IMG/VR virus record: IMGVR_UViG_3300020469_000055
Coordinates: 1 to 57,266 of that record
Reading direction: 5' to 3' (one strand)
DNA from: a virus
Lineage: Duplodnaviria; Caudoviricetes
DNA length: 57,266 nt
Below, in pieces: positions 30,645 through 49,678 of the stretch. The stretch's first letter is position 1, and every line of letters starts with the position of its first letter. Under the pieces are notes generated by a model. The model was not told where the DNA came from. It did no database searches and saw only the letters and a program-made list of their open reading frames with translations. Position numbers and translations under genes: made by a program.

Positions 30645-30666
30645 AGTAGATCCTTTCAAAAGTGAA

Positions 30667-30750
30667 TAGCCTCGGAGGGACTCGAACCCTCAAGACCCTA
30701 AGGTCGTCAGATTTTAAGTCTGATGCGTATGCCAATTCCGCCACAAGGCC
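30667..30750 (-). tRNA. tRNA-Leu(TAA)
   Basis: GGCCTTG acceptor stem, TCAGA-CTTAAAA-TCTGA anticodon arm, long variable arm, GGTTCGAGTCC; no encoded CCA. Confidence 0.95.
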
Positions 30751-30758
30751 AGTGTTAA

Positions 30759-31448: not shown

Positions 31449-31479
31449 ATGATTCTCCTAAAGTAAATGTGAATTGAAA

Positions 31480-31552
31480 TGCCCTCAGCAGGACTCGAAC
31501 CTGCGACCATCGGCTTAAAAGGCCGCTGCTCTACCAACTGAGCTATGAGGGC
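31480..31552 (-). tRNA. tRNA-Lys(TTT)
   Basis: GCCCTCA acceptor stem, TAGCTCAGTTGGTAGAGC D-arm, CGGC-CTTTTAA-GCCG anticodon arm, GGTTCGAGTCC. Confidence 0.96.
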
Positions 31553-31664
31553 AGTATTAAATTGTCAAGGCAGAGGACGTTTTCGATTCCAATCATCATA
31601 CCGTGAAAATAAATCAGTAATATAACTAGAGTTCTTGTTTGTTCTTTTTATCCAAAGCCTACAT

Positions 31665-34831: not shown

Positions 34832-35323
34832 TCAGTCAATCCTCCAAGTGTAAAGGCCATCACCTCTGTAATACTTATCATCGATAAGAATAATAGTGTA
34901 GAGTTGTTCGACTACTCCATCCCATCCAGAGATACCCGCGTCGATATCTCCATTAATATCAAGATCACGAACGAATGCGTCCTCGTCAAACTTCAGATAC
35001 GGTGCAACATATGAACCGCAGTTGACAAGGGAACTATCGATATCATCCTGGGCCATCTCTACCATTGACTCAATCGAGGCATTTCTATACTGAAGATAGA
35101 CATCTTCATCGCAAATTATATGCGTTTCACCTTCATGAGTAAAGGTAAACTGATCACAATTAATATTCTCTGTTTCAAAGTCATCCCGCATGGCACGGAT
35201 AATCTTTGCACGATCACCACCGAAACGATACTCCCATACTTGCGAGGCAATATGAATAAGATCATTTCGAGTAATTCCCTCGAACCCATCATCGGGAAGT
35301 TTAGGATATTCTACGTCAGCCAC
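34832..35323 (-). CDS. ArdA-like acidic antirestriction candidate
   Basis: PYLKFDEDAFVRDLDING resembles the ArdA C-terminal YFDYEAFARDL motif; GTG start after GGAGG. Confidence 0.55.
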   Translation of the reverse strand: MADVEYPKLPDDGFEGITRNDLIHIASQVWEYRFGGDRAKIIRAMRDDFETENINCDQFTFTHEGETHIICDEDVYLQYRNASIESMVEMAQDDIDSSLVNCGSYVAPYLKFDEDAFVRDLDINGDIDAGISGWDGVVEQLYTIILIDDKYYRGDGLYTWRID

Positions 35324-35660
35324 GGAAATCCTCCAATCGGTTGAAACAAAAGTCATCAGTTGGTCCATACCAACATACATTCCAGCATTCAGTACCATTG
35401 TTACCAATGAGAACAGAGTAGATCGCTTCGTTATCTTCCGGATCACGGTCCGGAGGAAAGATCCATACACGAGCAGACTTCTTGGAAACGATATGTTTAT
35501 GGCAGTTACTAATTGTTATTTCATTATCTCCTTCATAATCTTCCCACTCAAGATTCATTTCAACCCGAAGCATGTATCCTCCACACAAAAGAGAACATAC
35601 CAGTGTATGCAATGCATCAAGACGATCAGAAGTCTTATCAAATTCATCTGCTGCGTGCAT
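35316..35660 (-). CDS. Hypothetical protein
   Basis: TAATG-coupled ORF. Confidence 0.6.
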   Translation of the reverse strand: MHAADEFDKTSDRLDALHTLVCSLLCGGYMLRVEMNLEWEDYEGDNEITISNCHKHIVSKKSARVWIFPPDRDPEDNEAIYSVLIGNNGTECWNVCWYGPTDDFCFNRLEDFRG

Positions 35661-35842
35661 TAAAAGCCTCCCATAATTTTAAGTCTACTCTTAACCTGTG
35701 CGATAGTCGCACCCTTGACCAATCGAGACGATCGTTTTCTCCCCTCTATCCAAAATCTCACACCCTCCGGGGTATTCTTCAAGATCACACGTTGGGTATG
35801 ACCGTCACAATCCCTCGTAATAATCACATCAGTCATCAGCAC
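35660..35842 (-). CDS. Hypothetical basic protein
   Basis: Coupled small ORF. Confidence 0.55.
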   Translation of the reverse strand: MLMTDVIITRDCDGHTQRVILKNTPEGVRFWIEGRKRSSRLVKGATIAQVKSRLKIMGGF

Positions 35843-36066
35843 AACTCCGAAAGTTCGTCGTTCATAAGAGCCTCATACTCTTCCTTCGTGAACATCACAC
35901 CACCCTTTGCTAGTGCGAACCGCAAAGCACTATCTCTACAGGCGAATGCCGTATCAATCTCCATCGTACCCAAAGTCCATCGAATGAAGTACCACATATG
36001 ATCAATCCTTTCGGTTGTTGACTTCTCGGATATGGACATCAGTCTCATACCCGTCCACTCCATCAC
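35836..36066 (-). CDS. Hypothetical protein
   Basis: Small ORF; start uncertain. Confidence 0.45.
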   Translation of the reverse strand: MMEWTGMRLMSISEKSTTERIDHMWYFIRWTLGTMEIDTAFACRDSALRFALAKGGVMFTKEEYEALMNDELSELC

Positions 36067-36502
36067 TCACCTTAGCCATCGTACTAAGGCACCACGCCGC
36101 ATCAGCAGCCTGTTCATAGGTAGCGTACCTATAAACTTCATGCCCGAACACTTCCGGGCCGCCCTGACACGCCCCATCGGGAGCATATGCCGCCACCCAA
36201 CTCTCACGGGTCTCATGTACATGATACTCGTTTTCCAGTCGAACATCATCGAACAGGCGGTGAGCGATCACACATCGGTAATACGCACCTCGATTATATG
36301 ACTCCCATACCCTATCAAGGACATTGTTCCAGTTTGTATGTAGAAGACGTGTGATCCATCGGGGAGTAGGATCCCCGGTCGTCATCCTAGCACCCTCTCT
36401 CCGAAAAATCATTCTCTCCTCTTCACAAGCATCCTTGATCTCATAGATTCGTCTAACCCGTGCGATATCTCGATCGTTCCTACGCTTTTCGTCAGCGTTC
36501 AT
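36002..36502 (-). CDS. Hypothetical early protein
   Basis: ATG after a GGAGGT RBS. Confidence 0.7.
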   Translation of the reverse strand: MNADEKRRNDRDIARVRRIYEIKDACEEERMIFRREGARMTTGDPTPRWITRLLHTNWNNVLDRVWESYNRGAYYRCVIAHRLFDDVRLENEYHVHETRESWVAAYAPDGACQGGPEVFGHEVYRYATYEQAADAAWCLSTMAKVSDGVDGYETDVHIREVNNRKD

Positions 36503-36517
36503 ACTTGTGACCTCCAG

Positions 36518-36976
36518 TCAGAGCCATCGCACCAGCACGGACGACTCCCCGTGCATCAGGGTGCAGATCCGACGCCACCTTCGGGCGTCCTCGTTCATAC
36601 CGGGGAACACCCGGACACTCACACTACCGTCCCCCTTCACACACTCGATCTCGATCATTTCGTTCCTTTCCTCCAGCAAGCAGGAATAGTATGCTTAGAC
36701 ACATACCCATCACCTCTGGCTTGAACATATGCCCACGCCGCATCCTCAGTATCGAACCACGCGGACAACCCCGTTGAATCGATCACACCTATCCATATCG
36801 TTACTTCACACATTATCACACCTCCGAATCACGGTCAGTCCGCCACCCGACTTCACACGTCGAGTGATACGTCGGATGCGAGCCTTGTCGGCATCCGTAT
36901 TATCTTTGCTCCACCCTCTCACTTCCTTTTCCGAACGCTTCTCGAGGATAATCCGTGTGAGACTCTTTTTGTTCAT
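36518..36976 (-). other. Three tandem small ORFs (36518-36658, 36655-36813, 36806-36976; 46-56 aa)
   Basis: Manual translation; overlapping start and stop codons with AAGGA/GGAGG/GGAG RBSs. Confidence 0.55.
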
Positions 36977-37242
36977 ACGTCTGACTCCATTCTCGCACCC
37001 TTCCTACGGTTCTCTTCCATAGGTATGATGCGAAGGTTCGTGGGATGATGCGGCCCGCCACATGCGAGCGGCACGATATGATCCACCTCCCACCCCTCCG
37101 GGCAGGCCCGATAGATCGCGATGATCGCCGCGTACAATCGTGGCCGATCCGGACCTACGATACTACGCTTCGCAAGACCGTATGATCTCGCACGATCACG
37201 GGCCTTCCACTCATTCTTGCGAGCCGCTTCGCGAGTCTTCAT
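36973..37242 (-). CDS. HNH endonuclease
   Basis: CPEGWEVDHIVPLACGGPHHPTNLRIIPMEENRRKG. Confidence 0.88.
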   Translation of the reverse strand: MKTREAARKNEWKARDRARSYGLAKRSIVGPDRPRLYAAIIAIYRACPEGWEVDHIVPLACGGPHHPTNLRIIPMEENRRKGARMESDV

Positions 37243-37259
37243 AGGTATGATACTCCGGG

Positions 37260-37324
37260 TGGCAGGATCATCAGGCCGGGAATGCCAATCCCGACTTCCC
37301 CCGTATGCCCGGGGGATTCACCGT
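37260..37324 (-). ncRNA. Type II hammerhead ribozyme candidate (variant core)
   Basis: GGU-GAAU-CCCCCG[GGCAUA]CGGGGG-AA-GUCGGGA[UUGGCAU]UCCCGGC-CUGAUGA-UCC-UGCCA; loop-I UGGCA can pair with the 3' UGCCA; intergenic. Confidence 0.68.
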
Positions 37325-37335
37325 AGGTATGAGAG

Positions 37336-37821
37336 TCACTTGCCGATGAAGGACAGGTCGGGCTTGACACCCTTCCGGTGCTTCGAGATCGCATTCGCGA
37401 CCGATCCGACAGTCACACCCGCAGCCGCCGCGATGCGACGACGCTGCCGCTTGCCGATGATCGACTCCATGCGATCATACGCCTCCCACCGGGAGCCGTT
37501 GGACTTCTCGATACACTTCTCCCACACGGCAACATCATCCGTGTGAGTCTCCGGCTCGGGAGCCGGGGCGGGAGCCGGAGCCCCCGTGTGAGCCGCGAGA
37601 GCGGCAGCGACCGCCCGTGCGATCATACCGGCGATGTCCGGTTCGGTGGCCGGAGCCGGAGCCGGAGCGGGAGCCGGAGCCCCGTACGCACCGATCAGAG
37701 TCTTCCCCTTGCGGGCTCGAGACTCATTCCGGGCATGCCCCTCCGCAATCGCGACCGGATCGCCAGCCTTGATCAGGGAGACGAGATCCTTACGGGACAG
37801 CGAGATCATGGAACGCTTCAT
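37336..37821 (-). CDS. First early protein, with PA-repeat linkers and a C-terminal HTH-like segment
   Basis: GAAAGG RBS; two APAPAPAP tracts; RRRIAAAAGVTVGSVANAISKHRK. Confidence 0.75.
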   Translation of the reverse strand: MKRSMISLSRKDLVSLIKAGDPVAIAEGHARNESRARKGKTLIGAYGAPAPAPAPAPATEPDIAGMIARAVAAALAAHTGAPAPAPAPEPETHTDDVAVWEKCIEKSNGSRWEAYDRMESIIGKRQRRRIAAAAGVTVGSVANAISKHRKGVKPDLSFIGK

Positions 37822-37868
37822 ATGCATTACCTTTCGAACGAGGAAAGAAACAGGAATTGACACAAATC

Positions 37869-37897
37869 GGGCGGGGGTGGTCTCCCACCCCCAACCC
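37869..37897 (-). other. GNRA-capped GC-rich hairpin at the 3' end of the leader RNA (attenuator or stabiliser)
   Basis: GGGUUGGGGGUGG-GAGA-CCACCCCCGCCC followed by a U-rich stretch. Confidence 0.6.
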
Positions 37898-37900
37898 AGG

Positions 37901-37952
37901 GTCCGCATTAGAGTCGCGGTAGACTATGTCCGCATTAGAGTCGCGGTAGACT
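37901..37952. repeat. Perfect 25-bp tandem direct repeat (period 27)
   Basis: GTCCGCATTAGAGTCGCGGTAGACT at 37901-37925 and 37928-37952. Confidence 0.95.
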
Positions 37953-37954
37953 TG

Positions 37955-38651
37955 TGATGCCCCATCCGACCCGAGCATCATAGGTCCGGGATTCCAACCC
38001 CGTCGTTAAACGTATGAGACTCGATCCTCATCCGGTCTTCGGCTACTGCGATCCCCGATGATCGAGGCGAGAGTAGCATACTAGGCGGATGGACGGTAGT
38101 CGCATCATCATACGCTAGAATCATAGTTCGCCGATCATGCGTGGGGGCATAGGCCCTATCTCCTGTCCGCTCGCAACCACACCCCCAACATTCCCGATGG
38201 CACCATTCCGTGCCGAATCGGTTCCGCATACCTCGACGGCTCCGGAGGGTATGGGCGTACCATGATCCCGCCGATGGGCGTCGAGCGAAGTGTAGTATTG
38301 AGCGACCATTCATGGAGTGATACCGTGCCGGTCCCACTACCTGATCGAATTGAAGAATCCACCAACCCGCACCCATCGGTATACTACATCCGGTTCTGGT
38401 AAGGAAACGCTATCTGGTCGGTATCGGGAGTACCCTCCCGATACCTACAGCATAGGTATGATTCGAATCCTAGTCCGCCCGGTCGCATGATGCGAAAGGA
38501 AGCAGAGTCGAGTCTTCAACTGATTCGTGCGGGACTTTCTTCAGTGGCTCGGATCCCCTTCGACGGATCCCTTTGTAACCAATCCCGTGCCCCATTGCAC
38601 GAATTCGCTTGGATGTCGGACGAAGAGAAGGTACCAGATCCGGATTCGTAG
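37955..38651 (-). ncRNA. Large multi-domain structured RNA candidate (~700 nt)
   Basis: Four abutting domains, each closed by a long-range helix; mismatches are largely G-U on the minus strand; no credible protein-coding ORF. Confidence 0.65.
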
Positions 38652-38920
38652 GCTTGCTGCTGAAAAAAAGAGAAGAAATGTTGGCCCATCATCCCGGCAA
38701 GTATATCGGACCATCATACCGAAGCGGACCGAGGGGGGCCATGGGGGGTAGATCGTTGTTTGTTTTGTTTTGTGACCCCTTGTAAATTCTCGACCCCCTA
38801 GTCGATTTGGTATTCGTTAGATATGTACACGATTGACACGCCTGGGGGTCCCACCCCTGTTCCGTGGGTACTGTAACCACACGCTTTAGATATCCTAGGG
38901 GTCTATATAGCTTTCCTGCT

Positions 38921-38944
38921 TTCTATACTTTAGTCAATATGGAC
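38921..38944 (-). promoter_or_regulatory. Phage RNAP promoter, copy 3 (near the inferred genome termini)
   Basis: Identical 24-mer to 16718-16741. Confidence 0.8.
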
Positions 38945-39158
38945 ACATACCATCCATTCATCGGATATATGGATATAGTACAGCCCCGTAGGGCTAGTAA
39001 GTTATAATCTGTAAATCCATTCTAAGGGCCTGAAGTCCTGCCTTCTTGAGCTTGATAAGTGGTTACTCATCTTTCAGCTGAAGGCGTGTCTTAAGGCCCT
39101 GAGAGAGAATCCTATGGCCTCTCAGGGGTTATTGTGATATGGGCCTGTACCTGATATT

Positions 39159-39207
39159 CTCCTTCCCCAAGGCCCCCTCCGAAGAGGGGACCCCAGGGAC
39201 CAAGGAG
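39159..39207 (-). terminator. UUCG-capped long hairpin after the giant virion gene
   Basis: CUCCUU..CCCUGGGGUCCCCUC-UUCG-GAGGGG..CCUUGGGG..AAGGAG; lacks a U-tract. Confidence 0.5.
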
Positions 39208-39208
39208 A

Positions 39209-42200
39209 TTAGTTAAGTCGATCAGCCAAGCCCTCACTGGGAGAGCGTGGGGCTGACGGCTCAGGGCGTTGAAGAAGAGGAGGAGCTTTAGACTCCTGCT
39301 TCTTTTCGACTGGTTCTTCTTCCACGGGAGGCGGATTAGGAATTAATCGATCATCTGGGTAGTCAACTTCACTCCAGCCATGAGGCTGCTGAGCTGATCC
39401 CATCCACTTAATGTAACCTAAATCTTCCAGAGTAGGATGGCTTAGATAAGGAATATTACGACCTGATCCTGCTGTCATTGCAACAGAAGTAGCCTTCATT
39501 CCTTCTCTAAACGGAGCCTTTGAAAGCTGGAACGGTAAAGCATTAAATGGTAAAATTTCTCCAACAGTTTCAGCAACATCTGAAAAGGCAGAGCCTAAGC
39601 GTTTTTCTGCACCCGGACCACCGCCAACATATGATCCAATATTTCCAGCAAATCTAGAAAGACGACCATAAGTTTTCTGTACCATTGCAACAGCAGGGCT
39701 GCTAAATGGCCTAACCGGGAAATTACGCTCAGAGCTTTGCATAGCTCGGAGTACTGTATTGCCTACAATATCTCGCATATAAGGACCTACGCTTCCGAAT
39801 AAAGGACTGGAAAATCCGTAGGTTGCAAGAACTTCAATAACCTTATTCATGTCTGGCATGGTTGTAAGGTTTTCCATTGCTTGCTTTCTACGATCTTCGT
39901 CTTCTTTAAATAGAACCGCCTGAGCATTTCTATTAATATATTCAAAAGCAGTAAGGCTAGTTAAAATACCAGCCGTCATCATGGGTCCGCGAGCACGGAC
40001 ACCATTGCCAACCAGGGCTTGATAAGCCGCCATCGGATAAGACAGCATCTGGAAAAGCATGTCAACCAGAGGGTTCATTCCCTGGAATCGCATGGTGCCA
40101 CGAAGTTCAGGAGACATTTCCTGAGTTACAAACATAATATACTGATTAAGGGAGGGAAGAATAGAATCTTGAACTTTCATTCTATTTCTAGCAATATCAG
40201 AAAATTCTAGAGAAACTACTCCAGAATTAGCATCACTAGATCTCCCAGCAAGAGATTCTCCTAGCTCATTAAGATCAAGCTCTCGTCCAGCGGATCGAGT
40301 GTTTAATCCCGATGCAGACATAAGCTCTTCCATAATTCCAGGTCGAAGTAGTCCTGACTCAGCAGCATACGTCACTAAAGTTTGAGGAATACCCAACTCT
40401 CGAGCAATTCCCTGAATTTGTTTAAGGGTAAGCTCACGACCAGAAATTTCTTTAGAAAGAACAATTAGCTTATCTGAATGCTTAAGCAAAGTAGCTTTTG
40501 CCTGATTAGCCGCAACAGTACGAACAGCATTAGTAACCGGAAGCATGCCAGAAGCAAGACCAGTTAAATCTGCCGTAGCGCCTGTGAATGCTTCTACGCC
40601 ATCAGCCAACCTTTTAAGCCAACTAGGATCAGAATGTCCTTCTTGGGCTAATCCAGATCGAACATTATTTACATGAGTCTTCAACCTTTCGGCGACAGAT
40701 GTCATAAGCTCACCATCTTCCATAGCATCACCACCCGCACCAAACTTAGCCATAGAGCTAGATCTAAGGTTTTGTGTGGAGTATGCTAAGTCCTCAATTG
40801 TTTCTTTCATAATTCGTTTATCTAAGCCAAGAGAAGACATAAACTTTTGAACAGGCTTATACTTAACAGCTTCACCTCTAGCAGCATCTAATAGCGAGCC
40901 AGTAATGATTCCGGTATTTCGGATTAGCTTAAATGGATTTAATCCAGAAGTACGAAGAATAGTCATAGGAACTTCAACAAACAGAACCGACATTGCAAAC
41001 TTTGCTCCAAGAATAGAATAAGCAATGTTTTGAGTAATGCGGCTTGCCTGTGAAAACTCACGAGTACGCTGCGGATTAAATCCACGAGCACGTAAGTAAA
41101 GCTCGCGAAGGCTTTCCATATACTGGCTAACCTCACGATCATAATCCCTTTCAGTAATAGTTCGTTTCTTTCCTGTAGTATCGGTCTTAAGATTTAAGGT
41201 AAGAGAATTTTCAATCTCGTCAAACATATCGCTCATTGTTGCTCCCTTAAATCCAAAAAGATCATTAATAGCTTTTTGAATTCGAGTAGATGCAAGATGA
41301 GTATCAGCATACCGAATAATATGTTCCATTGAATTTCCTGCCTCAGCAAACAGGCTTGCTAATTCTTCTCCGCCCTCTCGAATAGAACCATCAGGATTAT
41401 CAAAATCACTAATGTTAAAAGTTCTATGGGGCATTCGAATATCATCAAGAGTTTTAATCTTAATATTTAAGTCACTGGGATTAGCCATATGACTATGCTT
41501 AAAGTTACCACCAGCATGATCAAGATAATCATATGCAGCAACTCTAAGAGGAGCCATAACTTTTCGTCCAACTTGCTCTAATCCTTTCATCCACTGTTCA
41601 GAGAAGATGTCCATATTATCGCCTTTAACGGCACTGGCATATAACTCAGCCAGCGTTCCTTTACCTGCAAGTCGATGGGCCTTATTAAAAGAACCGGCTT
41701 CAACCTGAGCTTCATTCTTTCTAGCAAAGTACTCATCAAGAGCATCAATAATATCAGACGGCTTTTTAGGATCGGGATCATCACCTGCACCGGCAGGAGA
41801 TTTTGGCGGCTTAGAAGGAGGAGCACCATCACCAGCATCAAGAGGCTTACGTGAACGGAAAGTAATTTCACTATTAATTTCATTATAAAGCGTACGCTCT
41901 TTAGAAGAAAGACTTCCTTCTTTACTAAGTTTTGCTTCCAAGCTAGAACCAATTTCAATTAACTCATCATCACTAAGTTCAGCAGGTTTTCTAGGAGCTG
42001 GTCCTTCCATGCTTTTAAATAATGCTTCGTTCGAAATATCATCTCGTTCTAACCTAGCCTGTGCTTCCTCTTCATACCTAGCTCTAAGATCTTTATCGCT
42101 AGGTCTGCGGAAATCTTGATTGTCACCATCAGCTAAACGCTGAGGACCAGTACGTCTGGTTTCAGCAATCTCTTCAGCCCGAAGACGAGCCTGTGCTTCC

Positions 42201-45200
42201 TCTTCATACCTAGCTCTAAGCTCTTTATCACTAGGCCTACGGAAGTCTTGGTCGTCACCATCAGCTAAACGCTGAGGACCAGTACGTCTGGTTTTAGCTG
42301 GGGCTTCGTCCGCAGCCTGCTCAGGAATATCTCCTGAATCCATAGACTTAGTAAGCTCTTGTTCCTGCTGACGAGCTACAAAGTAATCTTTGGCTTCTCG
42401 GGCAAACGAAACACCCTCACCTGGATTAGGCATATCCCAATCTCTAATGTTTTTCATAAACATCATGAGATCATCATAACTATCTACAATTTCATCAAAC
42501 TCTTCTTGGGTCATTCGAGTATAACCAGGAACACCTAAGAATTTAGTATCGGCAGCATTGTCATATTTATTGACAGTAGACTTAAGGGTAGCTTTAGTAT
42601 TACCAGCCGAAGTCTCAGCAATGTCATCAGCTACAGCAGGATGAGTAGTAACAATTTCATCTAGCTCTGCTTCTTCTCGCTGAGCTTTAAGTTTTGCTAA
42701 CTCATTTCTACCAAAAATCTTATCTTTTTCTGAAACTTCATCAACAACAACATTAGTTAATTTTCTAATATTTTTTAAATCAAAAACACCCTCGCTATGA
42801 TTATGGGTTCTAACCTGAGGTTCAGTTAATCCGGTTTCTTCCGCAATAGACGTAACTTGATTGTCTGTTAACTTATAACCACCTCGACCACCTGGCTCAA
42901 GTGTTCCTTCTCTAGATCTAAGAGCATCCATAAACTTTCGAGCATTTATTAATTTAACAGCCGCTTTTTGTGCCTCCGGAGAGGTAGAGTGCAATCCTGA
43001 ATCAATTAATACTGAAAGTTCTTCATCTGCTTCAGATAGATTTCTTAATACAACTTCATCAGATTTTGCAGAGCTTAAACTAATTTCAGCACTTTCGCCT
43101 CTTTCAACAAGCTTAGATCTTCCTGTAATCTGATTAAGCTCTTTTTCCTCAGCATTGGTTAAAGCTTTTCCAGACTTTTTCTTTTCAGATAAAATATCTT
43201 TCCTAGCTTTTTCTTCTTTAGTAATTCTGCTTTTAACTCGAAGTCCTTGTTCATCACCACTAGGACCACGTTTTGCAATAGTAAGAGTTTGATTTTTAAC
43301 TCCATTATTAGCAGCTAAGAAGATTTCATCTTGACTCATACGCCTTCCATTAATAGTAGGCCAAGCTTCGTCCTTAAACAGCTTTGCAAAAAGAACTTCA
43401 GTAAAAGCTTCAAGCTGTTTACTTAGAGTTCCATTTAACTTTCTACCATTAATAAATCTTTCGGTAACAGCATCAAGAGTTTCTTTAAGAAAAACTGGAT
43501 CACTAGCCTGCTCTTCAGTAGGCTCAGCTTGTTTACCGGACTTAGAAAACATTCCCTTAAACTTGCCTTTTTTCGGATCAGCAGGAGTTAAAGTTTTGTC
43601 TTCTTCCGTTACAATAGTTTCGCCCTTTGCTTTGACGGAATCTTCAATATCTGATCGCTTTCCCGAAACAACACGAGAAGGCTGAACCTTTCCGTCTTTA
43701 TCGGTTGTTCGAATCTTTAGAGTAACCTCAGGTTCTTCCTTAGGCTTAACAACCGTAACTTTTTTAGTCGTTGTTGCCGAAGAAGAAGTAGAAGTAGATG
43801 CATTGCTAACATCTCGAGCTTCAGTCGGACGCCAAGCCCGGCGATCAACATCATAATAAATCCTATTATTATCAATAAGATCTTGAATATGCTTTTCCAT
43901 TTCCGCTCGATTAGTTGCAACTAAACCACCGCCCCGCTGAGCGGTAATCATTCTTTCTGTAGAAGAGTCGATATTTGCAGCCCTAGCTTCAGGACCAGTA
44001 ATGGTTTCAAAGTTTCGAATAAACCAACCATTTTCATCTCCTACTCCAGAAGTATTTCGTTCAATTTCTAAAGGACGACCATTTACAGTAGTAACCTGAT
44101 AGGGATCACCATACTCATCTTTCTTTCGTTTAAAGTTAAAAGAAATTTTTTTAGGAGCCGCAGCTTCAGTTGGATCAGCCTCAGCAACCTTAGCCGCAGG
44201 CTTTTCTTCAACTGCCTTAGAAATAGGAGCATCTCTTACTCCAGGATCAACCTTAGTCTCAAGCCTTTGAAGAGTTTCATTGATCGAATCAATCTCTTGT
44301 TCAAGCTTAGTTAGCTGATCTTGAAGATCCACTTCTTTTCCTGCCACTTGAACTTTATTTCTCTTTTCGCTTAACTCCATTAGCTTACTAATTTGACTTT
44401 CATCCATATCATCTGGAGAAAGGTTTTGTAACTTAACAAAAGAATCATATTCTGACTCATTAAGACCACCCCGTCTTGCTAGTTCAAGAGCAAGATTAAG
44501 CTGTTCTTTTTTAGTAATCAATGATTTCTTATCCACAAGATAAGCAGCATCTCCATATTCATCAATCTTTTCTGCTTCAGTAATTCCAAAGGTTCGTTGA
44601 AGACGATCAGCAGGAGCGTCATCGGCAGAAAGATCATACCAGCTTTTAACTCCTGCTTTAATTGCCTTAAACTTTTCTTCTCCTAAAATCTCATAGCCAA
44701 TACTATCAGATTCTTTTTTAAGAATTGAAATATCTCCAATTAGTTTTTTAAAGAACTGACTAAACTTATGAAGAAATTCTTTAAGAGGTCCATTTTTCAT
44801 AGCAAGCTGATTACGTACAAGAGAAATTTCAGCTAAAGCAGCCGCAAACTCATGAACATTTGATAAGGCATATTCTACATTTCCAATACCAGCCCGTTCA
44901 AACAACCGACGAATTTCGTTTTCGCCATTTTTAGTTTGAACAAACAAAGCCTGAATAGTTGCCTGCATTTTTGCTGGAGCAGATAAAAAGCTTAGGTGAG
45001 CAGTTTCATGCACAAGAATTGATGCAACATTAAGAGCATCGCCATATTCAGTTTTTTCAAGCTCACGCAAAAGACTTAATCCAATTGTTCCTCCTTCAAC
45101 AGGACGACCATTGAAATCTTTTGTGCTCCTAGCAATTCCTAAAGTTCCTCCGTCTACAACAGAATCAAGATAAGTAAAAGTCATCCCCATCATTTTATGA

Positions 45201-48200
45201 GGATCAACATCAACAAAAGCCAGCATTACAACTCTAGCGGCATCTTCATCAAGAAAACCTTCTGCAATCAAATTGTCTAGTTTATTCAACAGGGATTCAT
45301 GTCCCTTTGATAATCCAGCATAAGACTCTCGACTAGAAACATACTTTAGCTTTTGATTCTGAGACATAGGCTTGCGCCGAAGTTTTACTTCTCCCGAAAT
45401 CATTTGCTCTCTAACTTCACTAACAATAGCATATCCTCGAACAGCCATTGCATTATCTAAATCTATTAACATATCCTTAATAGTAAATTCAGGATTTTCA
45501 AGATCATACAAAGCTCGTTCTTCAGCAGACATGCCATTTAACTGGTTATATGCTCGACGCATTTGGTTCATAAAAGAATCGGTATCAGCAACAGCATGTG
45601 CTACTCCAGTTGCAGTAGCAGCATCTACTGGATTTCTTCCTAAAGGTAAACCAAAATGATTTCCTCGCATTTCAAAATAATTATCTTGGAGTTTAGTAAT
45701 ATTTCCAGGATCTCGACGAATCCGTTCAATAACACCAAGCGATCTAGCAACCGCAGATCCAGTACCAGCTTCTCCGGTATCTAATCTTTTAAGACCCTCG
45801 TAACCTTCCTTAATTACGCTTTCAGCATACTTAATACTATCCTCTAAGTTTCCAATCCAAAAGGGAGAATCCTCAGGAACAATAAAGGGTTTATTTAAAA
45901 CAGGTTTACCCCCTGCTTCAACAACATCATTCTTTACGATTTTAATAAACCCAAGTGAATTAAGAACGTCTTTATCTAGAGTATTATTACCAGATAAAAG
46001 TTGATTCGTTCGGATTTGAACAAAGCCATCAACAAATTGTTTGGCTCGATCTGCACTTAATCCACCTCGAATCATGTTTGGAATATAACGAGCCGCATTC
46101 GTATTTGCAATAGGAGCACCAGCTTCGGCCATTTCATCCAAAGCTTTCTGCATGAAATTGGTATAAAGCTTTTGTACATTTTTAAGCTCAGTCTTTAGAG
46201 CATTAACATCACCACCAAAAACACGAATCATTTCTTCCGGCAATACGTCTTCATCAATATCCCCGATAAGCTTACCAAGCTGACGAAGCTTAAGAAAAAG
46301 GAAATCAAATTCTTTAAATGAGGGGCCGCCTAAACGAACTTTTAATCCATTGATATAGTTTACATAAGGCAAGGCTTCTCGGGAAGCTCCCTCAACAATT
46401 GCTTCGATTGACATAAAGTCAGTAGAGTTACTGTACACGCGGTTATTAATATGCTGTCCGGTAATAAAGTTTGAAAACCCACGAACAATACGGTTTCGAG
46501 ATCGGAATAATCTAGCCTGTTTAATAGGCCAGTTAACAGCGGCGCTTATGTTTCTTTCAATAAAATCACCAATAGAAGTTCCTTTAAAGATCGTACCAAG
46601 CCACCAACGATCCGTAGATCTTTCTCCAACCTTTAAAGCATCAGGCGACTGACTAAGAATAATTTTATCAACAGCATCCCTCAGCGCATTAGCCTTAAGA
46701 GCACTATTACGAGCCTTAAATGGAATATCATTTAAAACCTGAGCTGATAATCTTTCAAATGCTTCATCAACATCGATATTGATTCCAAGCTTCTTAGCCA
46801 GATCACGATAAATTCCTTTTCGTCGAGTAATTTCCTGGCTAATCTTTTTAGTAAAAGAAGACTCGTCTAATTTTGCGCCAGAAATTTTATTAAACTTTCG
46901 CCTAAGATTAGAACGAAACTTAGTAAAGTTACGGACATTTTGAACAACACCTGCTTCGTTTAAAAACTTACTGACATTAAAGGAGGACTTTACCGCATCA
47001 TATGCTTCAAGACCTTTACCCTCAGCAATTTGTTTAATAGCCTTCTTAATATCAGGATACCTTGCATTTAGTTTTGCAATTTCTTCTGCATTACCTACAA
47101 GCCCCTTATACTCTCGAGTATACTTCATAATCTGTTTGGCAGAAACACCAAGATCTAAAGCAACTCGAATTGCTCTTTCGTTTCGTAAAAGAGAAAAAGC
47201 ATTTTCAACTTTAAGCAAGTCCTGAAGAAAAGAATCTTTTCGAGCTTCAGTTCCTCGAGAAACAATATCATCAAGTCGCTTATTAAAAGCAAGTGTATCT
47301 GCTTCGCTTAGTCGCTTAGAGTTGTTTAGAATTTTTTGAGCACCCCTTAAACTTTTTTCATCGTTGATTCGAGGAATAAGTTTAAGTAGTTGATTTATTT
47401 CAGCTCTAGTTGCAGCAGGTTGACCAGGAATTCCAGAGTCTTTAAGTTTATTTAAAAGAGCTTTAAGAGTTACAGCTTCTTTGTCAGATAAAGCTTGTCG
47501 CCCAGATCCTCCTACAAATCTTTTAGCCGTATCAATTCCCTTAGACTTAAGAGTTCGATCTAGCATATCTAATCTTTGCTGAGCAGTTTCAGCTCCATCA
47601 GAAGCTAAATCCTTAGCTTCTCGGAAAACAGCTTGGATAATAGTATCAAACTCTTCCGTTCCAATTTGCGCACCAGCACCAAGCTTTTTTTGAATTCCAA
47701 AAACTAAGTCAACTGCATCAGCAGAAGAAAGACCATACTTCGCTAAAGTCTCAGAAGAAAATAAATCTTCAATAGTTTCGCTAAGATCTTCGCCTTCTTT
47801 TCGAATAACTAATAAAGGAATCGTTTCAGCTAAAACATCCTTAGCTTCTACTTCTCCTCTATTTAGTCGAATAGCAAGTCCTTGATTTTCAATATTAGAG
47901 AAAATCTGAGCGCCCTCAATTTCAGGAACTGTTGCTTCTCGTTCTGCTAAACGATTGAGGCCACGAACTTTAGCTGCTTCACCTAATGCTCCGGTATCAG
48001 CAACGTAGTCTGTCATGCGAGTAGCAACACGACTAGTACCACGAAAGGCAGGACCAATTCGATTAATCCCACCAGCAATACCAGCACCGCCAATAGCACC
48101 CATACCTCCATAAAGAGCCATGTTAGTATAAACACCTGTAAAGTCTAGCTCGGTTCTAGCACCTTCCATAATCAATGAAGTTTGTCCACCAATAGAAGCT

Positions 48201-49678
48201 GCATATCCTTCAGCCGCTCCTGCAACAAAACCATCGATGGCCGTGTATGCCATAATTTTTCCTACATTAGTAGCTCCTGCGGCAGTACCTGCGGAAAGTG
48301 CAGTACCAGCAAAAACACCTACTGGAACCGCACCTGTAAGAAAATACATGGCATAAGGATCATTAGCAATGTCTGCTTTAATCGTATCGCTTAAACGACG
48401 AGTCCAATTAAACCATCCATCATGATAATCTTTTTCAAACATCATTTCACGCAGATCCATAGCAGCTTGCTTTTGAGCCGACATATTTGCAGTCATCATA
48501 TAACTAAAAGGATTTGTTGTATTATCTGCTAGCATTTCATGAGTAATGCCAGCTTTCATAAGCAGTTCTTTTTCTGTATCTTCTAAGGTATCGTAAATTG
48601 TTTCTTTCCAGGAGTCATCAGTAACAACAACCCTAGATAACGCTTCTTCAAGAAAATCTGGTCCAACAGTCTCAGAAAGATTTTGAATTTGGATTGCTAA
48701 AAGTGCGGGATCTCCTGCTTTTTCATTATCTCCATTTAAAAGAAAATGAAGTTTTCTAATCGTTTGACGTTGTGCTTGTTCATAAACAAACTGCTTTGCA
48801 GATAGTCCACTTAGTCCTCGTTCATCTCTAGCCTGATAATCAAGCATTTGCCAAAGAGTGCTATCAAATCGATCTAAATCATCATCTGCTAGTAATACAT
48901 CATTTATTCCAGATTGATATAAACGACTTACTAATTCTTTACGCTCTTCTTCAGTTCCAGCAGTTGCTGCATTAAACTCTGGCTCTGAAAGTCTATCAAG
49001 CTGATAAGCTGCTTCAATATAACTTTCTTGGTAGGAATTAGATCCTCTATTTCTACTTCTTCTATAGGAAGAATCAACCATACTTTCATCACCGCCTCTT
49101 GCTAAAAACTTTTGTTTATACAGCTCATAAGCTTTAGCATTTAAAAGTCCAGCCCAATTTCGCTCATTGTTTCCTGCAATAGCAATAGTACTTCGATCTT
49201 CGCCAGCTCGACCATCTTGATATAAGCTAACGCTAGGACGAATTCCAATAGATCCGCCTAAGTCTATGACTTCCCTAATTGCATTGTCTTTTGAAAAAGC
49301 ATTGTTTGCTAAAGAAGAAGCAAGAGATTCTCCGAAGTAAGAAGTAAAAAATTTCTGCGTAACATTTCTACGAGCTAAACGAGCGCTGTTATTATTATCC
49401 ATAGAAATGTTTGCGCCACTAATTCCTGCACTACTAGAATCCATATCTGGAGTAATAGCATGATACAGTTCAGATAAAGCACCCGTATTAAACTGATCTG
49501 GATATTGGGTTTTAAGGCTCAAGAAGTCTACATCATCACCATACATAAACCCACCCTTACCATCGGGCATAATTCTTTTTTCTCCTAGCTCAAAACGAGG
49601 AGGAGTAATTGGATCAGTAATGTAGTCGCCTAAAATATTAACTCTATCTTGAGTCATTCGATTGGCATAAATAGACAT
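39209..49678 (-). CDS. Giant internal virion (ejection) protein, gp16-like, with a zincin metallopeptidase motif
   Basis: 3489 aa; last of three internal-virion-like genes; VHETAH...NVHEFAA; Gly/Ala hydrophobic segments near the N-terminus. Confidence 0.75.
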   Translation of the reverse strand: MSIYANRMTQDRVNILGDYITDPITPPRFELGEKRIMPDGKGGFMYGDDVDFLSLKTQYPDQFNTGALSELYHAITPDMDSSSAGISGANISMDNNNSARLARRNVTQKFFTSYFGESLASSLANNAFSKDNAIREVIDLGGSIGIRPSVSLYQDGRAGEDRSTIAIAGNNERNWAGLLNAKAYELYKQKFLARGGDESMVDSSYRRSRNRGSNSYQESYIEAAYQLDRLSEPEFNAATAGTEEERKELVSRLYQSGINDVLLADDDLDRFDSTLWQMLDYQARDERGLSGLSAKQFVYEQAQRQTIRKLHFLLNGDNEKAGDPALLAIQIQNLSETVGPDFLEEALSRVVVTDDSWKETIYDTLEDTEKELLMKAGITHEMLADNTTNPFSYMMTANMSAQKQAAMDLREMMFEKDYHDGWFNWTRRLSDTIKADIANDPYAMYFLTGAVPVGVFAGTALSAGTAAGATNVGKIMAYTAIDGFVAGAAEGYAASIGGQTSLIMEGARTELDFTGVYTNMALYGGMGAIGGAGIAGGINRIGPAFRGTSRVATRMTDYVADTGALGEAAKVRGLNRLAEREATVPEIEGAQIFSNIENQGLAIRLNRGEVEAKDVLAETIPLLVIRKEGEDLSETIEDLFSSETLAKYGLSSADAVDLVFGIQKKLGAGAQIGTEEFDTIIQAVFREAKDLASDGAETAQQRLDMLDRTLKSKGIDTAKRFVGGSGRQALSDKEAVTLKALLNKLKDSGIPGQPAATRAEINQLLKLIPRINDEKSLRGAQKILNNSKRLSEADTLAFNKRLDDIVSRGTEARKDSFLQDLLKVENAFSLLRNERAIRVALDLGVSAKQIMKYTREYKGLVGNAEEIAKLNARYPDIKKAIKQIAEGKGLEAYDAVKSSFNVSKFLNEAGVVQNVRNFTKFRSNLRRKFNKISGAKLDESSFTKKISQEITRRKGIYRDLAKKLGINIDVDEAFERLSAQVLNDIPFKARNSALKANALRDAVDKIILSQSPDALKVGERSTDRWWLGTIFKGTSIGDFIERNISAAVNWPIKQARLFRSRNRIVRGFSNFITGQHINNRVYSNSTDFMSIEAIVEGASREALPYVNYINGLKVRLGGPSFKEFDFLFLKLRQLGKLIGDIDEDVLPEEMIRVFGGDVNALKTELKNVQKLYTNFMQKALDEMAEAGAPIANTNAARYIPNMIRGGLSADRAKQFVDGFVQIRTNQLLSGNNTLDKDVLNSLGFIKIVKNDVVEAGGKPVLNKPFIVPEDSPFWIGNLEDSIKYAESVIKEGYEGLKRLDTGEAGTGSAVARSLGVIERIRRDPGNITKLQDNYFEMRGNHFGLPLGRNPVDAATATGVAHAVADTDSFMNQMRRAYNQLNGMSAEERALYDLENPEFTIKDMLIDLDNAMAVRGYAIVSEVREQMISGEVKLRRKPMSQNQKLKYVSSRESYAGLSKGHESLLNKLDNLIAEGFLDEDAARVVMLAFVDVDPHKMMGMTFTYLDSVVDGGTLGIARSTKDFNGRPVEGGTIGLSLLRELEKTEYGDALNVASILVHETAHLSFLSAPAKMQATIQALFVQTKNGENEIRRLFERAGIGNVEYALSNVHEFAAALAEISLVRNQLAMKNGPLKEFLHKFSQFFKKLIGDISILKKESDSIGYEILGEEKFKAIKAGVKSWYDLSADDAPADRLQRTFGITEAEKIDEYGDAAYLVDKKSLITKKEQLNLALELARRGGLNESEYDSFVKLQNLSPDDMDESQISKLMELSEKRNKVQVAGKEVDLQDQLTKLEQEIDSINETLQRLETKVDPGVRDAPISKAVEEKPAAKVAEADPTEAAAPKKISFNFKRKKDEYGDPYQVTTVNGRPLEIERNTSGVGDENGWFIRNFETITGPEARAANIDSSTERMITAQRGGGLVATNRAEMEKHIQDLIDNNRIYYDVDRRAWRPTEARDVSNASTSTSSSATTTKKVTVVKPKEEPEVTLKIRTTDKDGKVQPSRVVSGKRSDIEDSVKAKGETIVTEEDKTLTPADPKKGKFKGMFSKSGKQAEPTEEQASDPVFLKETLDAVTERFINGRKLNGTLSKQLEAFTEVLFAKLFKDEAWPTINGRRMSQDEIFLAANNGVKNQTLTIAKRGPSGDEQGLRVKSRITKEEKARKDILSEKKKSGKALTNAEEKELNQITGRSKLVERGESAEISLSSAKSDEVVLRNLSEADEELSVLIDSGLHSTSPEAQKAAVKLINARKFMDALRSREGTLEPGGRGGYKLTDNQVTSIAEETGLTEPQVRTHNHSEGVFDLKNIRKLTNVVVDEVSEKDKIFGRNELAKLKAQREEAELDEIVTTHPAVADDIAETSAGNTKATLKSTVNKYDNAADTKFLGVPGYTRMTQEEFDEIVDSYDDLMMFMKNIRDWDMPNPGEGVSFAREAKDYFVARQQEQELTKSMDSGDIPEQAADEAPAKTRRTGPQRLADGDDQDFRRPSDKELRARYEEEAQARLRAEEIAETRRTGPQRLADGDNQDFRRPSDKDLRARYEEEAQARLERDDISNEALFKSMEGPAPRKPAELSDDELIEIGSSLEAKLSKEGSLSSKERTLYNEINSEITFRSRKPLDAGDGAPPSKPPKSPAGAGDDPDPKKPSDIIDALDEYFARKNEAQVEAGSFNKAHRLAGKGTLAELYASAVKGDNMDIFSEQWMKGLEQVGRKVMAPLRVAAYDYLDHAGGNFKHSHMANPSDLNIKIKTLDDIRMPHRTFNISDFDNPDGSIREGGEELASLFAEAGNSMEHIIRYADTHLASTRIQKAINDLFGFKGATMSDMFDEIENSLTLNLKTDTTGKKRTITERDYDREVSQYMESLRELYLRARGFNPQRTREFSQASRITQNIAYSILGAKFAMSVLFVEVPMTILRTSGLNPFKLIRNTGIITGSLLDAARGEAVKYKPVQKFMSSLGLDKRIMKETIEDLAYSTQNLRSSSMAKFGAGGDAMEDGELMTSVAERLKTHVNNVRSGLAQEGHSDPSWLKRLADGVEAFTGATADLTGLASGMLPVTNAVRTVAANQAKATLLKHSDKLIVLSKEISGRELTLKQIQGIARELGIPQTLVTYAAESGLLRPGIMEELMSASGLNTRSAGRELDLNELGESLAGRSSDANSGVVSLEFSDIARNRMKVQDSILPSLNQYIMFVTQEMSPELRGTMRFQGMNPLVDMLFQMLSYPMAAYQALVGNGVRARGPMMTAGILTSLTAFEYINRNAQAVLFKEDEDRRKQAMENLTTMPDMNKVIEVLATYGFSSPLFGSVGPYMRDIVGNTVLRAMQSSERNFPVRPFSSPAVAMVQKTYGRLSRFAGNIGSYVGGGPGAEKRLGSAFSDVAETVGEILPFNALPFQLSKAPFREGMKATSVAMTAGSGRNIPYLSHPTLEDLGYIKWMGSAQQPHGWSEVDYPDDRLIPNPPPVEEEPVEKKQESKAPPLLQRPEPSAPRSPSEGLADRLN
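42057..42294. repeat. Intragenic tandem duplication, period 132 nt (44 aa)
   Basis: TRRTGPQRLADGD(D/N)QDFRRPSDK(E/D)LRARYEEEAQARL occurs twice. Confidence 0.92.

What the first reader, a model, noticed from the sequence alone, without database searches (positions are those of the whole stretch)
37869..38651. Large multi-domain structured RNA at the leading end of a T7-like genome
Seen: about 780 nt of GC-rich DNA with no credible gene, which on the minus (gene-sense) strand tiles into abutting domains, each closed by a long-range helix. D1 pairs 38632-38651 with 38384-38401 (CUAC..AUCCGG..CUGGUA / UACCAG..CCGGAU-GUAG) and encloses an 11-bp perfect hairpin (38420-38445) and a long GGAUCC-capped arm. 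D2 pairs 38370-38379 with 38271-38280 (CCGAUGGGUG/CGCCCAUCGG). D3 pairs 38259-38269 with 38117-38127 (GGGAUCAUGGU/ACUAUGAUUCU) and encloses a junction with three hairpins. D4 pairs 38102-38107 with 37955-37960 and 38086-38092 with 37962-37968. Twin hairpins and a GAGA-capped stem follow. Many imperfect pairs are G-U on the minus strand but would be A-C on the plus strand, which favours selection on an RNA. Established: phages carry large ncRNAs such as GOLLD and ROOL, and cis-acting antiterminators such as HK022 put. I could not match this sequence to any of them. Inference: it is the first transcript made on DNA entry and may act as an antiterminator aiding transcription-driven entry, a defence decoy or a scaffold.
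Basis: partly seen in the sequence, partly recalled or inferred. Interest (0 to 1): 0.9.

Follow-up and report, generated by a model that had tools for sequence, protein, structure and literature searches.

The report
Abundant untranslated leader RNA of phage
The stretch is a gene-free leader in front of the first early gene of a widespread marine T7-like phage; it appears far more abundant than its neighbours in one sea-water RNA sample, but the proposed large multi-domain fold is not supported.

Summary
The window is a circularly assembled 57-kb marine T7-like phage with all genes on the minus strand. A 1,387-nt gene-free gap (39208-37822) lies between the last late gene and the first early gene, and the finding sits inside it.

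- **Confirmed:** the stretch is non-coding and GC-rich. The helices D1-D3, the 11-bp hairpin and the GAGA-capped stem appear in the minimum-energy fold.
- **Not confirmed as special:** the folding z-score (-3.0 to -3.5) is ordinary for this genome. Seventeen coding control windows of the same size gave +0.05 to -5.88.
- **Conservation:** the only reachable diverged relative (L020) shows no similarity in the multi-domain part. It shares only the last ~100 nt: two ~25-nt units with a covarying 4-bp stem, then a GC hairpin ahead of a conserved helical protein gene.
- **Known families:** Rfam gives nothing.
- **New:** in two metatranscriptome runs of one sample, contigs over 38418-37885 have 10-20 times the depth of flanking phage contigs. 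Two DNA runs show no such excess.

Best reading: a long untranslated early leader, probably cut at the genome's strongest stem-loop and ending at a terminator-like hairpin. A trans-acting RNA remains possible.

The parts
37822..39208 (-). Gene-free gap between the stop of the 3489-aa late ORF and the start of the first early gene
   Evidence: ORF lists. No codon-position GC periodicity. No Pfam hit for its small ORFs.
38921..38944 (-). Phage-type promoter-like motif GTCCAnnTTGACTAAAGTATAGAA, one of three copies; the others are at 27350-27327 and 16741-16718
   Evidence: 3 matches against 0.19 expected. The copies diverge right after ...TATAGAA. One copy sits just upstream of the RNA polymerase gene. 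Promoter function is inferred.
38443..38852 (-). Upstream leader piece, covered by an RNA-library contig of depth 20.8
   Evidence: run X7, record 20. Contigs do not show the strand.
38410..38455 (-). Strongest stem-loop of the genome: 21-nt arms with an 11-bp perfect core and a GGUA loop. Proposed processing site.
   Evidence: the only one of 12 inverted repeats with separate arms and a loop.: -27.9 kcal/mol, z -4.81, 0 of 200 shuffles. RNA contigs of different depth abut it on both sides. Cleavage is inferred.
37885..38418 (-). Segment over-represented in the RNA libraries (contig depth 91.2 in X6; 127.1 for 37998-38418 in X7)
   Evidence: Flanking phage contigs in the same runs have depth 5-10, and DNA runs X8 and X12 show no excess. 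One sample only; these are per-contig k-mer depths.
38271..38379 (-).
   Evidence: MFE equals centroid, -45.4 kcal/mol, z -4.06, 0 of 200 shuffles. The boundaries were chosen from the fold, which biases z. No comparative support.
38117..38269 (-).
   Evidence: closing helix in MFE and centroid, z -2.38, 4 of 200 shuffles. No comparative support.
37901..37952 (-). Two identical 25-nt units (37952-37928 and 37925-37901) of the form GTC-N6-GAC-NN-TAAT-N4-AC, conserved as a pair in L020
   Evidence: A 4-bp stem is kept in 16 of 16 cells, with changes on both sides at 4 of 4 pairs. The local alignment is significant, 0 of 200 shuffles. The motif occurs only here in the window.
37873..37892 (-). GC-rich hairpin GGGGGUGG-GAGA-CCACCCCC followed by GCCCGAUUUGUGU; terminator- or attenuator-like
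   Evidence: terminator-like site; z -3.59. L020 has an 8-11-bp hairpin of unrelated sequence at the same place, followed by GGCGAUUC (z -5.44).
37336..37821 (-). First early gene, 161 aa, a conserved all-helical protein with an HTH-like C-terminal motif
   Evidence: 15 relatives (13 at 42-64% identity over 97-100% of the query, 2 partial or weak) in marine metagenome proteins. Model pLDDT 77, seven helices. No significant fold match. The HTH reading is my own, from the motif.

Best explanation
The stretch is the main part of a long untranslated leader in front of the early operon of a marine T7-like podovirus.

Proposed course of events:
1. The leader is transcribed on the gene strand. The start is most likely the phage-type promoter at 38944-38921, or host promoters not yet recognised. 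The transcript runs about 1.05 kb to a GC-rich hairpin roughly 50 nt before the first early gene.
2. The precursor is cut at the genome's strongest stem-loop (38455-38410), as RNase III cuts T7 early RNA.
3. The distal ~0.53-kb piece (about 38418 to 37870) is bounded by these two hairpins and outlasts the neighbouring RNA.
4. The GC hairpin acts as a partial terminator and protects the 3' end.
5. The two 25-nt units just upstream of it are the conserved regulatory element of the cassette. They are either small RNA hairpins or binding sites for the adjacent helical protein.

Status of each point:
- Shown: the stretch is non-coding, RNA-library contigs over it are in large excess, and the 3' elements are conserved.
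- Inferred: the strand, the promoter, the cleavage, termination and any regulation.
- Not established: the large D1-D4 fold.
For: - Position and gene order.
- No coding signal.
- A promoter-like motif upstream, 3 copies against 0.19 expected.
- RNA-library contigs: 37885-38418 at depth 91.2 (X6), 37998-38418 at 127.1 (X7) and 38443-38852 at 20.8 (X7). Eleven other listed phage contigs of these runs have depth 2.9-13.4, and two over 39899-40398 have 18.8 and 47.6. All have 0-1 differences from the window. DNA runs X8 and X12 show no excess.
- The stem-loop between the two leader contigs is the only long true hairpin among 12 inverted repeats of the genome, with z -4.81.
- The GC hairpin is flagged as terminator-like, with z -3.59.
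- L020, whose downstream protein is 46% identical, keeps the order twin units, GC hairpin, G(C/G)CGAUU, start codon. The alignment is significant at 0 of 200 shuffles. The stems are kept through compensatory changes (hairpin sequences).
- T7 transcripts are cut by RNase III at specific sites and are very stable (passage read in PMC6938266).
Against: - All laid runs are assembled contigs. They give no strand, no ends and only one depth figure per contig.
- The runs were found by searching with this very stretch.
- Both RNA runs come from one sample, and no DNA run of that sample was laid.
- No sigma-70-like promoter is found in 37300-39400: 0 sites against 1.3 expected.
- The U-tract after the GC hairpin is poor, and poorer still in L020.
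- The twin-unit stem is only 4 bp. It is not favoured thermodynamically: z -1.11 in the window and +0.09 in L020, where the MFE uses GUC/GAC pairing instead.
- A symmetric DNA operator would show the same covariation.
- Only one diverged relative could be read.
Confidence: 0.45

Rival explanations
1. One reading: a large, multi-domain, trans-acting structured RNA of a new class. It would act as a decoy, a scaffold or an antiterminator, and its D1-D4 fold would be under selection.
For: - The helices D1-D3 are present in the MFE and centroid.
- D2 is well defined, z -4.06.
- RNA-library contigs over 38418-37885 are in 10-20-fold excess. That fits a stable folded RNA.
- No Rfam family matches, so it would be new.
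- Near-identical sequence is held by 20 run rows of 12 studies.
Against: - The whole-region z-score is ordinary against 17 same-size coding controls from the same genome.
- 200-nt windows outside the hairpin give z -0.9 to +0.1.
- There is no sequence similarity to L020 in the multi-domain part; 161 of 200 shuffles aligned as well.
- The L020 leader folds no better than shuffles on the sense strand: z -1.97, against -3.01 antisense.
- D1 straddles two contigs of 5-6-fold different depth, and a natural variant at 38635 breaks its closing helix.
- D4 is not in the MFE.
- No enriched repeated motif such as GGA was found.
Confidence: 0.2
2. The element works mainly at the DNA level. It would be the leading-end, terminal-repeat or concatemer-junction region of the linear genome, the part that enters first and is used in packaging. 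Its hairpins and repeats would act in DNA, and the RNA would be a by-product of promoter read-through, like T7 phiOL/phiOR transcripts.
For: - The position between the last late and first early gene of a one-strand T7-like genome.
- A phage-type promoter just upstream.
- Strong avoidance of some 4-base palindromes: GCGC 0 against 4.9 expected, AGCT 0 against 3.0. GATC is in excess. The same pattern holds in L020.
- T7 clamps its genome at about 850 bp on entry (passage read in PMC8954989).
- The twin units contain a GTC-N6-GAC dyad and a -10-like TAAT.
Against: - The ends were not located. The record is a circular assembly with a 64-nt overlap elsewhere.
- The conserved cassette in L020 travels with the early gene.
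- The excess is seen in the RNA-library contigs and not in the two DNA runs.
- There is no -35 box in front of the twin units (read) and no sigma-70 site.
Confidence: 0.2
3. A largely functionless spacer: non-coding filler of a GC-rich early cassette acquired horizontally. Only the last ~100 nt would be functional. The high RNA depth would reflect strong transcription and chance stability.
For: - The GC-rich island 36.0-38.8 kb includes the neighbouring genes.
- The upstream leader is not conserved in L020.
- Folding is at the genome background.
Against: - In the two DNA runs laid (X8, X12) only one variant was listed in the gap; five DNA runs hold 0.91-1.00 of its sampled words.
- The gap is 1.39 kb in an otherwise tightly packed genome.
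- The unusual hairpin lies exactly between the two contigs of different depth.
Confidence: 0.12

Closest known systems
Bacteriophage T7 left-end leader: the gene-free region before gene 0.3, with the phiOL and A1-A3 promoters and the R0.3 RNase III site
   Same: Both are gene-free stretches of about 1 kb ahead of the first early gene in a one-strand genome with a single-subunit RNA polymerase. Both have a phage-type promoter upstream. Here a long stem-loop lies between two leader RNA contigs of different depth, and T7 transcripts are cut by RNase III and are stable (PMC6938266 passage). T7 holds its genome at about 850 bp on entry (PMC8954989 passage). The promoter names and T7 coordinates are recalled, not checked here.
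   Different: No sigma-70-type promoters were found. This leader is GC-rich in an AT-rich genome. It has a terminator-like hairpin and a conserved pair of 25-nt units before the first gene. The leader piece far exceeds the neighbouring phage contigs in RNA-library depth. There is no sequence similarity to any record in the phage collection.
Cis-acting phage antiterminator RNAs: HK022 put and lambda nut boxB
   Same: Small stem-loops lie in an early leader, upstream of a terminator-like hairpin and in tandem. Stem complementarity is kept through compensatory changes.
   Different: The stems are only 4 bp with 9-nt loops and are thermodynamically weak. No polymerase-modifying activity was tested. 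The put and nut features are recalled from memory. No match to any Rfam model.
Large phage-associated non-coding RNAs GOLLD and ROOL
   Same: These are non-coding RNAs of several hundred nucleotides carried by phages. Abstracts seen: 10.1101/2024.12.08.627333 and PMC5737381.
   Different: No hit to either model, or to any of the 4227 Rfam families, even at E<=10. There are no conserved sequence blocks in the one relative. Folding energy is not above the genome background.
Intrinsic terminator or attenuator leaders of bacterial and phage operons
   Same: A GC-rich hairpin with a U-containing tail lies about 50 nt before the first start codon, and contig depth drops about 15-fold across it. In L020 an upstream segment is strongly complementary to the 3' half of the hairpin: -29.8 kcal/mol, matched by 1 of 500 shuffles.
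   Different: The U-tract is poor. The antiterminator-like complementarity is absent in the window, where 172 of 500 shuffles did as well. The leader is far longer than known attenuators.

Membership tests
Any Rfam 15 family (including GOLLD, ROOL, group I/II introns, RNase P, tmRNA, 6S, IMES) | Match to the family covariance model at the gathering score | tested here: not met
   The whole window at gathering score gave only 2 tRNAs. 37300-39300 at E<=10 gave 4 chance-level hits, none inside 38651-37869. L020 at E<=10 gave 6 chance-level hits. ARAGORN found no tmRNA.
Protein-coding gene | An open frame with codon-position bias and homologues | tested here: not met
   GC by codon position is flat. 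ORF 38376-37978 has no relative in 1.84 billion representatives apart from itself. No Pfam hit. The L020 leader has stops in all three frames.
T7-type early leader | A gene-free segment directly ahead of the first early gene of a one-strand genome that encodes a single-subunit RNA polymerase | tested here: met
T7-type early leader | A cluster of strong host (sigma-70) promoters | tested here: not met
   0 promoter-like sites in 37300-39400 against 1.3 expected. The host and its promoter type are unknown.
T7-type early leader | An RNase III processing hairpin in the leader | tested here: inconclusive
   A 21-nt-arm stem-loop with z -4.81. RNA contigs of 5-6-fold different depth lie on either side of it. 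Contigs cannot show ends, and no enzyme test was done.
T7-type early leader | Lies just inside the terminal repeat of the linear genome | not testable with these tools
   The record is a circular assembly. Only contigs could be laid, not raw reads.
Intrinsic terminator | A GC-rich stem-loop followed directly by a run of U | tested here: inconclusive
   The scan lists 37890-37869 with the tail GATTTGTGTC. The hairpin has z -3.59. The L020 tail GGCGATTCATCC has few U.
Conserved structured RNA (general criterion) | Covariation that supports the helices across homologues | tested here: inconclusive
   Met only for the 4-bp stem of the twin units: 16 of 16 cells paired and 4 of 4 pairs changed on both sides, from 3 distinct stem sequences in 4 rows. 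By eye it is also met for the GC hairpin. D1-D4 could not be aligned with L020.
CsrA/RsmA-sponge RNAs | Many GGA motifs above expectation | tested here: not met
   GGA occurs 26 times against 24.0 +/- 3.4 in dinucleotide shuffles; 337 of 1000 shuffles had as many.

The most novel reading that the evidence does not exclude
The ~0.53-kb piece (about 38418-37870) is a stable, highly abundant phage non-coding RNA of a class not yet described. It would be released from the early leader by cleavage at a hairpin and would act in trans during infection, for example by soaking up a host nuclease or defence protein, or by holding a phage protein. It would belong to a cassette (leader plus helical protein gene) that moves among marine phages.
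Probability: 0.15. Interest if true: 0.8.

Novelty: new variant of a known kind. Interest (0 to 1): 0.5.

Why it matters
Long non-coding leaders at the entering end of T7-like genomes are known from T7 itself, but they have hardly been studied in the uncultured marine podoviruses. Here a leader is held near-identically in public marine sequencing runs of 12 studies. It may be the most abundant RNA this phage makes in at least one natural sample. It also carries a small conserved control module in front of a conserved early protein.

If the processing and termination model holds, it gives a concrete and testable example of how early expression is set in this group. If the piece acts in trans, it would be a new phage RNA.

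The check also shows that helices found by eye and a folding z-score near -3 are not evidence of structure in this genome. Coding controls of the same size score the same.

Tried and rejected
1. **Rfam.** Nothing in the gap or in L020.
2. **Coding.** Rejected.
3. **CsrA-sponge or repeated-motif RNA.** GGA is not enriched. GGAUC and GAUCC are enriched mainly in L020, and I could not interpret that.
4. **Upstream antiterminator segment pairing with the 3' half of the GC hairpin.** Significant in L020 (1 of 500 shuffles) but not in the window (172 of 500). It is not a shared feature.
5. **Twin units as sigma-70 promoters.** There is a -10-like TCTAAT or GATAAT, but no -35 and no site in the scan. 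Left open as a DNA operator.
6. **Homologue hunts that gave nothing usable:**
   - the phage collection by blastn gave 1 low-complexity hit;
   - Viral contigs with the C-terminal 500 aa of the giant ORF, with the 161-aa protein and with alignment A2;
   - five RNA-polymerase relatives L002-L006 gave no match to the gap DNA or to the giant ORF. Their contigs stop 1-5 kb upstream of the polymerase gene, so the leader position was never covered;
   - the promoter 17-mer gave 4 loci, of which one true relative (L009) covers only the structural block;
   - a specific twin-unit pattern gave 0;
   - Genome contigs with A2 gave 0 of 430 candidates;
   - Metagenome contigs with A2 gave 2 of 489 candidates, one identical (L019) and one diverged (L020).
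7. **The relaxed twin pattern.** It found 19 viral contigs, all from one different family with GTCAGRGAAGACNNTAATCGCA repeats. They lack the 4-bp stem and the downstream gene, so they are not homologues.
8. **Fold of the 161-aa protein.** No PDB match at E<=0.001; the best was Fis at E 2.3.
9. **P0014.** Its gene call runs into the leader of an L020-like relative. The last ~24 codons before the start are identical to L020 and the rest is unalignable. Nothing could be inferred without DNA.
10. **Parts without cover in the laid runs (told here only).** Among the 32 pieces shown (329 were not), the RNA contigs leave 38419-38442 uncovered in X6 and X7, and bin 38978-39211 has depth 0 in both. X6 and X7 are one sample, so their common stop at 38418 is below the tool's bar for even a weak hint.
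11. **Literature.** Searches with 't7-like / noncoding rna / metatranscriptome / marine' and 'golld / rool / phage' listed no description of such a leader. I read only listings and abstracts there. Supplements were not seen.
Full report
**What the window is.** The window is a complete IMG/VR virus record of 57,266 bp. It was assembled as a circle, with an identical 64-nt overlap at its two ends. All long ORFs lie on the minus strand. It encodes a single-subunit RNA polymerase (27284-24780, phrog_414, E 1.5e-147), a primase/helicase and a large terminase, so it has the plan of a T7-like podovirus.

Reading along the minus strand, the late block ends with two orphan giants of 998 aa and 3489 aa. 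Neither has a Pfam or PHROG hit. A 1,387-nt gap follows (39208-37822), and then come small early genes. The finding (38651-37869) lies inside this gap. The physical ends of the linear genome were not located, so 'leading end' is inferred from gene order.

**Is the stretch non-coding?** Yes.
- GC content by codon position is flat across the gap, unlike the next gene.
- The 132-aa ORF 38376-37978 has no Pfam hit.
- Among 1.84 billion protein representatives it found only an identical 83-aa fragment of itself and a 26-residue low-complexity match.
- GC is 52-58% here, 60-70% in the first early gene, and about 40% elsewhere.

**Are the helices there?** Mostly.
- The closing helices of D1, D2 and D3, the perfect 11-bp hairpin and the GAGA-capped stem are in the MFE and centroid folds.
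- The D4 closing pairs are complementary, but the fold does not use them.
- The 'twin hairpins' are two identical 25-nt direct repeats.

**Is the folding more than chance?** It beats shuffles but not the genome's own background.
- The region gives z -3.48 with 20 shuffles or -2.96 with 60. The plus strand gives -2.82 or -2.40.
- Six 783-nt sense-strand windows from coding parts gave -2.56, -1.48, -2.06, -5.88, -4.67 and -1.65.
- Eleven more gave +0.05 to -4.16, mean -2.63. Five of the 11 were at or below -2.96 (script, read).
- In 200-nt windows, the target scores -0.9 to +0.1 between 37851 and 38350. It scores -2.3 to -3.2 only where the window holds the 11-bp hairpin. The background was -0.90 +/- 1.5 over 139 windows, 32 of them <= -2.
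- With boundaries taken from the fold, which biases z downward, D2 gives -4.06, D3 -2.38 and D4 -0.88.
- The advantage of the minus strand is also present in the shuffles, so it is mainly composition.

Two local features do stand out. The stem-loop 38455-38410 is the only long true hairpin among 12 inverted repeats of the genome, with z -4.81. The GC hairpin 37892-37873 has z -3.59.

**Known families.** None matches. The window at gathering score, the gap at E<=10 and L020 at E<=10 gave nothing credible in Rfam.

**Transcription.**
- The gap's words are held by 20 run rows of 12 studies, from marine, seawater or viral metagenomes. Four rows are metatranscriptome runs of one sample.
- I laid two RNA runs and two DNA runs on 35000-42000. 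All are contigs, so they give no strand, no ends and one depth figure per contig.
- In the RNA runs, the contigs over 37885-38418 (X6) and 37998-38418 (X7) have depths 91.2 and 127.1. The contig over 38443-38852 has depth 20.8.
- Eleven other listed phage contigs of the same runs have depths 2.9-13.4. Two over 39899-40398 have 18.8 and 47.6. All have 0-1 differences from the window.
- The DNA runs show no excess (3.1 and about 1).
- The huge depth in bin 37574-37807 comes from a low-complexity Ala-Pro repeat shared with other organisms.

So in this one sample the distal leader is 10-20 times over-represented in the RNA library. DNA carry-over alone would not give this. There are caveats. The runs were found by searching with this stretch. 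Both RNA runs are one sample, with no matching DNA run. The strand is unknown; I favour the gene strand because of gene direction and the motif described next.

**A promoter-like motif upstream.** A 24-nt motif, GTCCAnnTTGACTAAAGTATAGAA, occurs three times on the minus strand, against 0.19 expected. The copies lie at 38944-38921, just before the RNA polymerase gene, and before the structural block. Similarity ends right after TATAGAA. A relative keeps the motif before its structural block. I read these as phage-polymerase promoters by analogy with T7, which is a recalled comparison. No sigma-70-type site was found in 37300-39400.

**Relatives.**
- The first early gene (37821-37336) encodes a conserved 161-aa all-helical protein with 15 relatives in metagenome proteins (13 at 42-64% identity over 97-100% of the query, two partial or weak).
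- The HTH-like reading of its C-terminus is my own. The fold search gave no significant match.
- Only one diverged relative could be reached as DNA: L020, a 1,081-nt contig with 549 nt upstream of a gene that is 46% identical.
- Its upstream region is also GC-rich and has stops in all frames.
- The best local alignment between the window's 38950-37955 and L020 1-400 is no better than shuffles; 161 of 200 did as well. The last ~130 nt align significantly, at 0 of 200 shuffles.

Shared between the two are:
- two units of the form GTC-N6-GAC-NN-TAAT-N4-AC;
- then an 8-11-bp GC hairpin of unrelated sequence;
- then G(C/G)CGAUU;
- then the start codon 50-75 nt on.

In the units, a 4-bp stem is paired in 16 of 16 cells, and all 4 pairs change on both sides. 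Slid controls pair in 19-44% of cells. This rests on three distinct stem sequences in four rows. The stem is weak thermodynamically, and a symmetric DNA operator would covary in the same way.

The L020 leader as a whole folds with z -1.97 on the sense strand and -3.01 antisense. One natural variant in the gap (38635, in DNA runs X8 and X12) turns a G-C pair of the D1 closing helix into a mismatch.

**Reading.**
- Shown: a gene-free, GC-rich leader; strong over-representation of its distal 0.53 kb in one sample's RNA libraries; a conserved 3' module (twin units plus GC hairpin) attached to a conserved early gene; and one exceptional stem-loop lying between two RNA contigs of different depth.
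- Inferred: transcription on the minus strand from the upstream phage-type promoter; cleavage at the stem-loop, as RNase III cuts T7 RNAs (PMC6938266 passage); partial termination and 3' protection at the GC hairpin; and a regulatory role for the twin units.
- Not supported: a selected four-domain architecture.

The closest known thing is the T7 left-end leader. T7 also holds its genome at about 850 bp on entry (PMC8954989 passage). The differences are the composition, the lack of recognisable host promoters, the conserved twin module and the accumulation of the leader piece.

**Verdict.** This is a real and moderately interesting feature. Its interpretation should shift from 'large structured RNA' to 'abundant, probably processed early leader with a small conserved control module'. 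A trans-acting role is possible and untested.

- Interest: 0.5.
- Novelty: new variant of a known kind.

The decisive data were out of reach here: raw strand-specific reads and the upstream DNA of the 13 other relatives.

Noticed in passing
window 39209-49678 (-) and 49733-52729 (-): ORFs of 3489 aa and 998 aa follow the terminase block. Neither has a Pfam or PHROG hit. The C-terminal 800 aa found no match in five relatives' records. A 111-nt near-tandem repeat lies at 42056-42166 and 42188-42298.
   Followed up: partly
window 39899-40398: RNA-library contigs inside the giant ORF have raised depth: 18.8 in X6 and 47.6 in X7, against about 10 for neighbouring contigs. This could be an internal or antisense transcript.
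   Followed up: no
window 38944-38921, 27350-27327, 16741-16718 (-): There are three copies of a 24-nt phage-promoter-like motif. They lie ahead of the leader, the RNA polymerase gene and the structural block, which suggests three transcription units.
   Followed up: partly
L021-L039 (for example L024 1511-1554): Nineteen IMG/VR contigs carry 2-3 tandem GTCAGRGAAGACNNTAATCGCA units directly upstream of a ribosome-binding site and ATG. In many of them the first unit is preceded by a TTGACA-like box. This looks like a promoter/operator array of another phage family.
   Followed up: no
window 36000-38800: This is a GC-rich island (50-70% against about 40%) covering the leader and the first early genes, including a small HNH endonuclease at 37242-36973. 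GATC runs at 9-17 per kb against 5.8 per kb genome-wide. GCGC and AGCT are absent from the target and from the L020 leader.
   Followed up: partly
L020 148-168 and 463-483: A segment about 300 nt upstream is nearly perfectly complementary to the loop and 3' arm of L020's GC hairpin: -29.8 kcal/mol, matched by 1 of 500 shuffles. This could be an antiterminator or a domain-closing helix. The window has no equivalent.
   Followed up: partly
window 36001-36783 (-): This early coding window gave the lowest folding z-score of the tool controls (-5.88). My own 14-shuffle run gave -2.99. The estimates are noisy.
   Followed up: no
window 37018-37055 and 37240-37277; also 38451-38462: A 38-nt repeat ending in ATCATACCTATG precedes the HNH start codon and recurs inside that gene. 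The same 12-mer sits at the 5' foot of the big stem-loop, where its ATG opens a two-codon frame.
   Followed up: no
window 30666-30751 and 31479-31553 (-): tRNA-Leu(UAA) and tRNA-Lys(UUU) genes lie in the early region, next to a thymidylate synthase gene.
   Followed up: no
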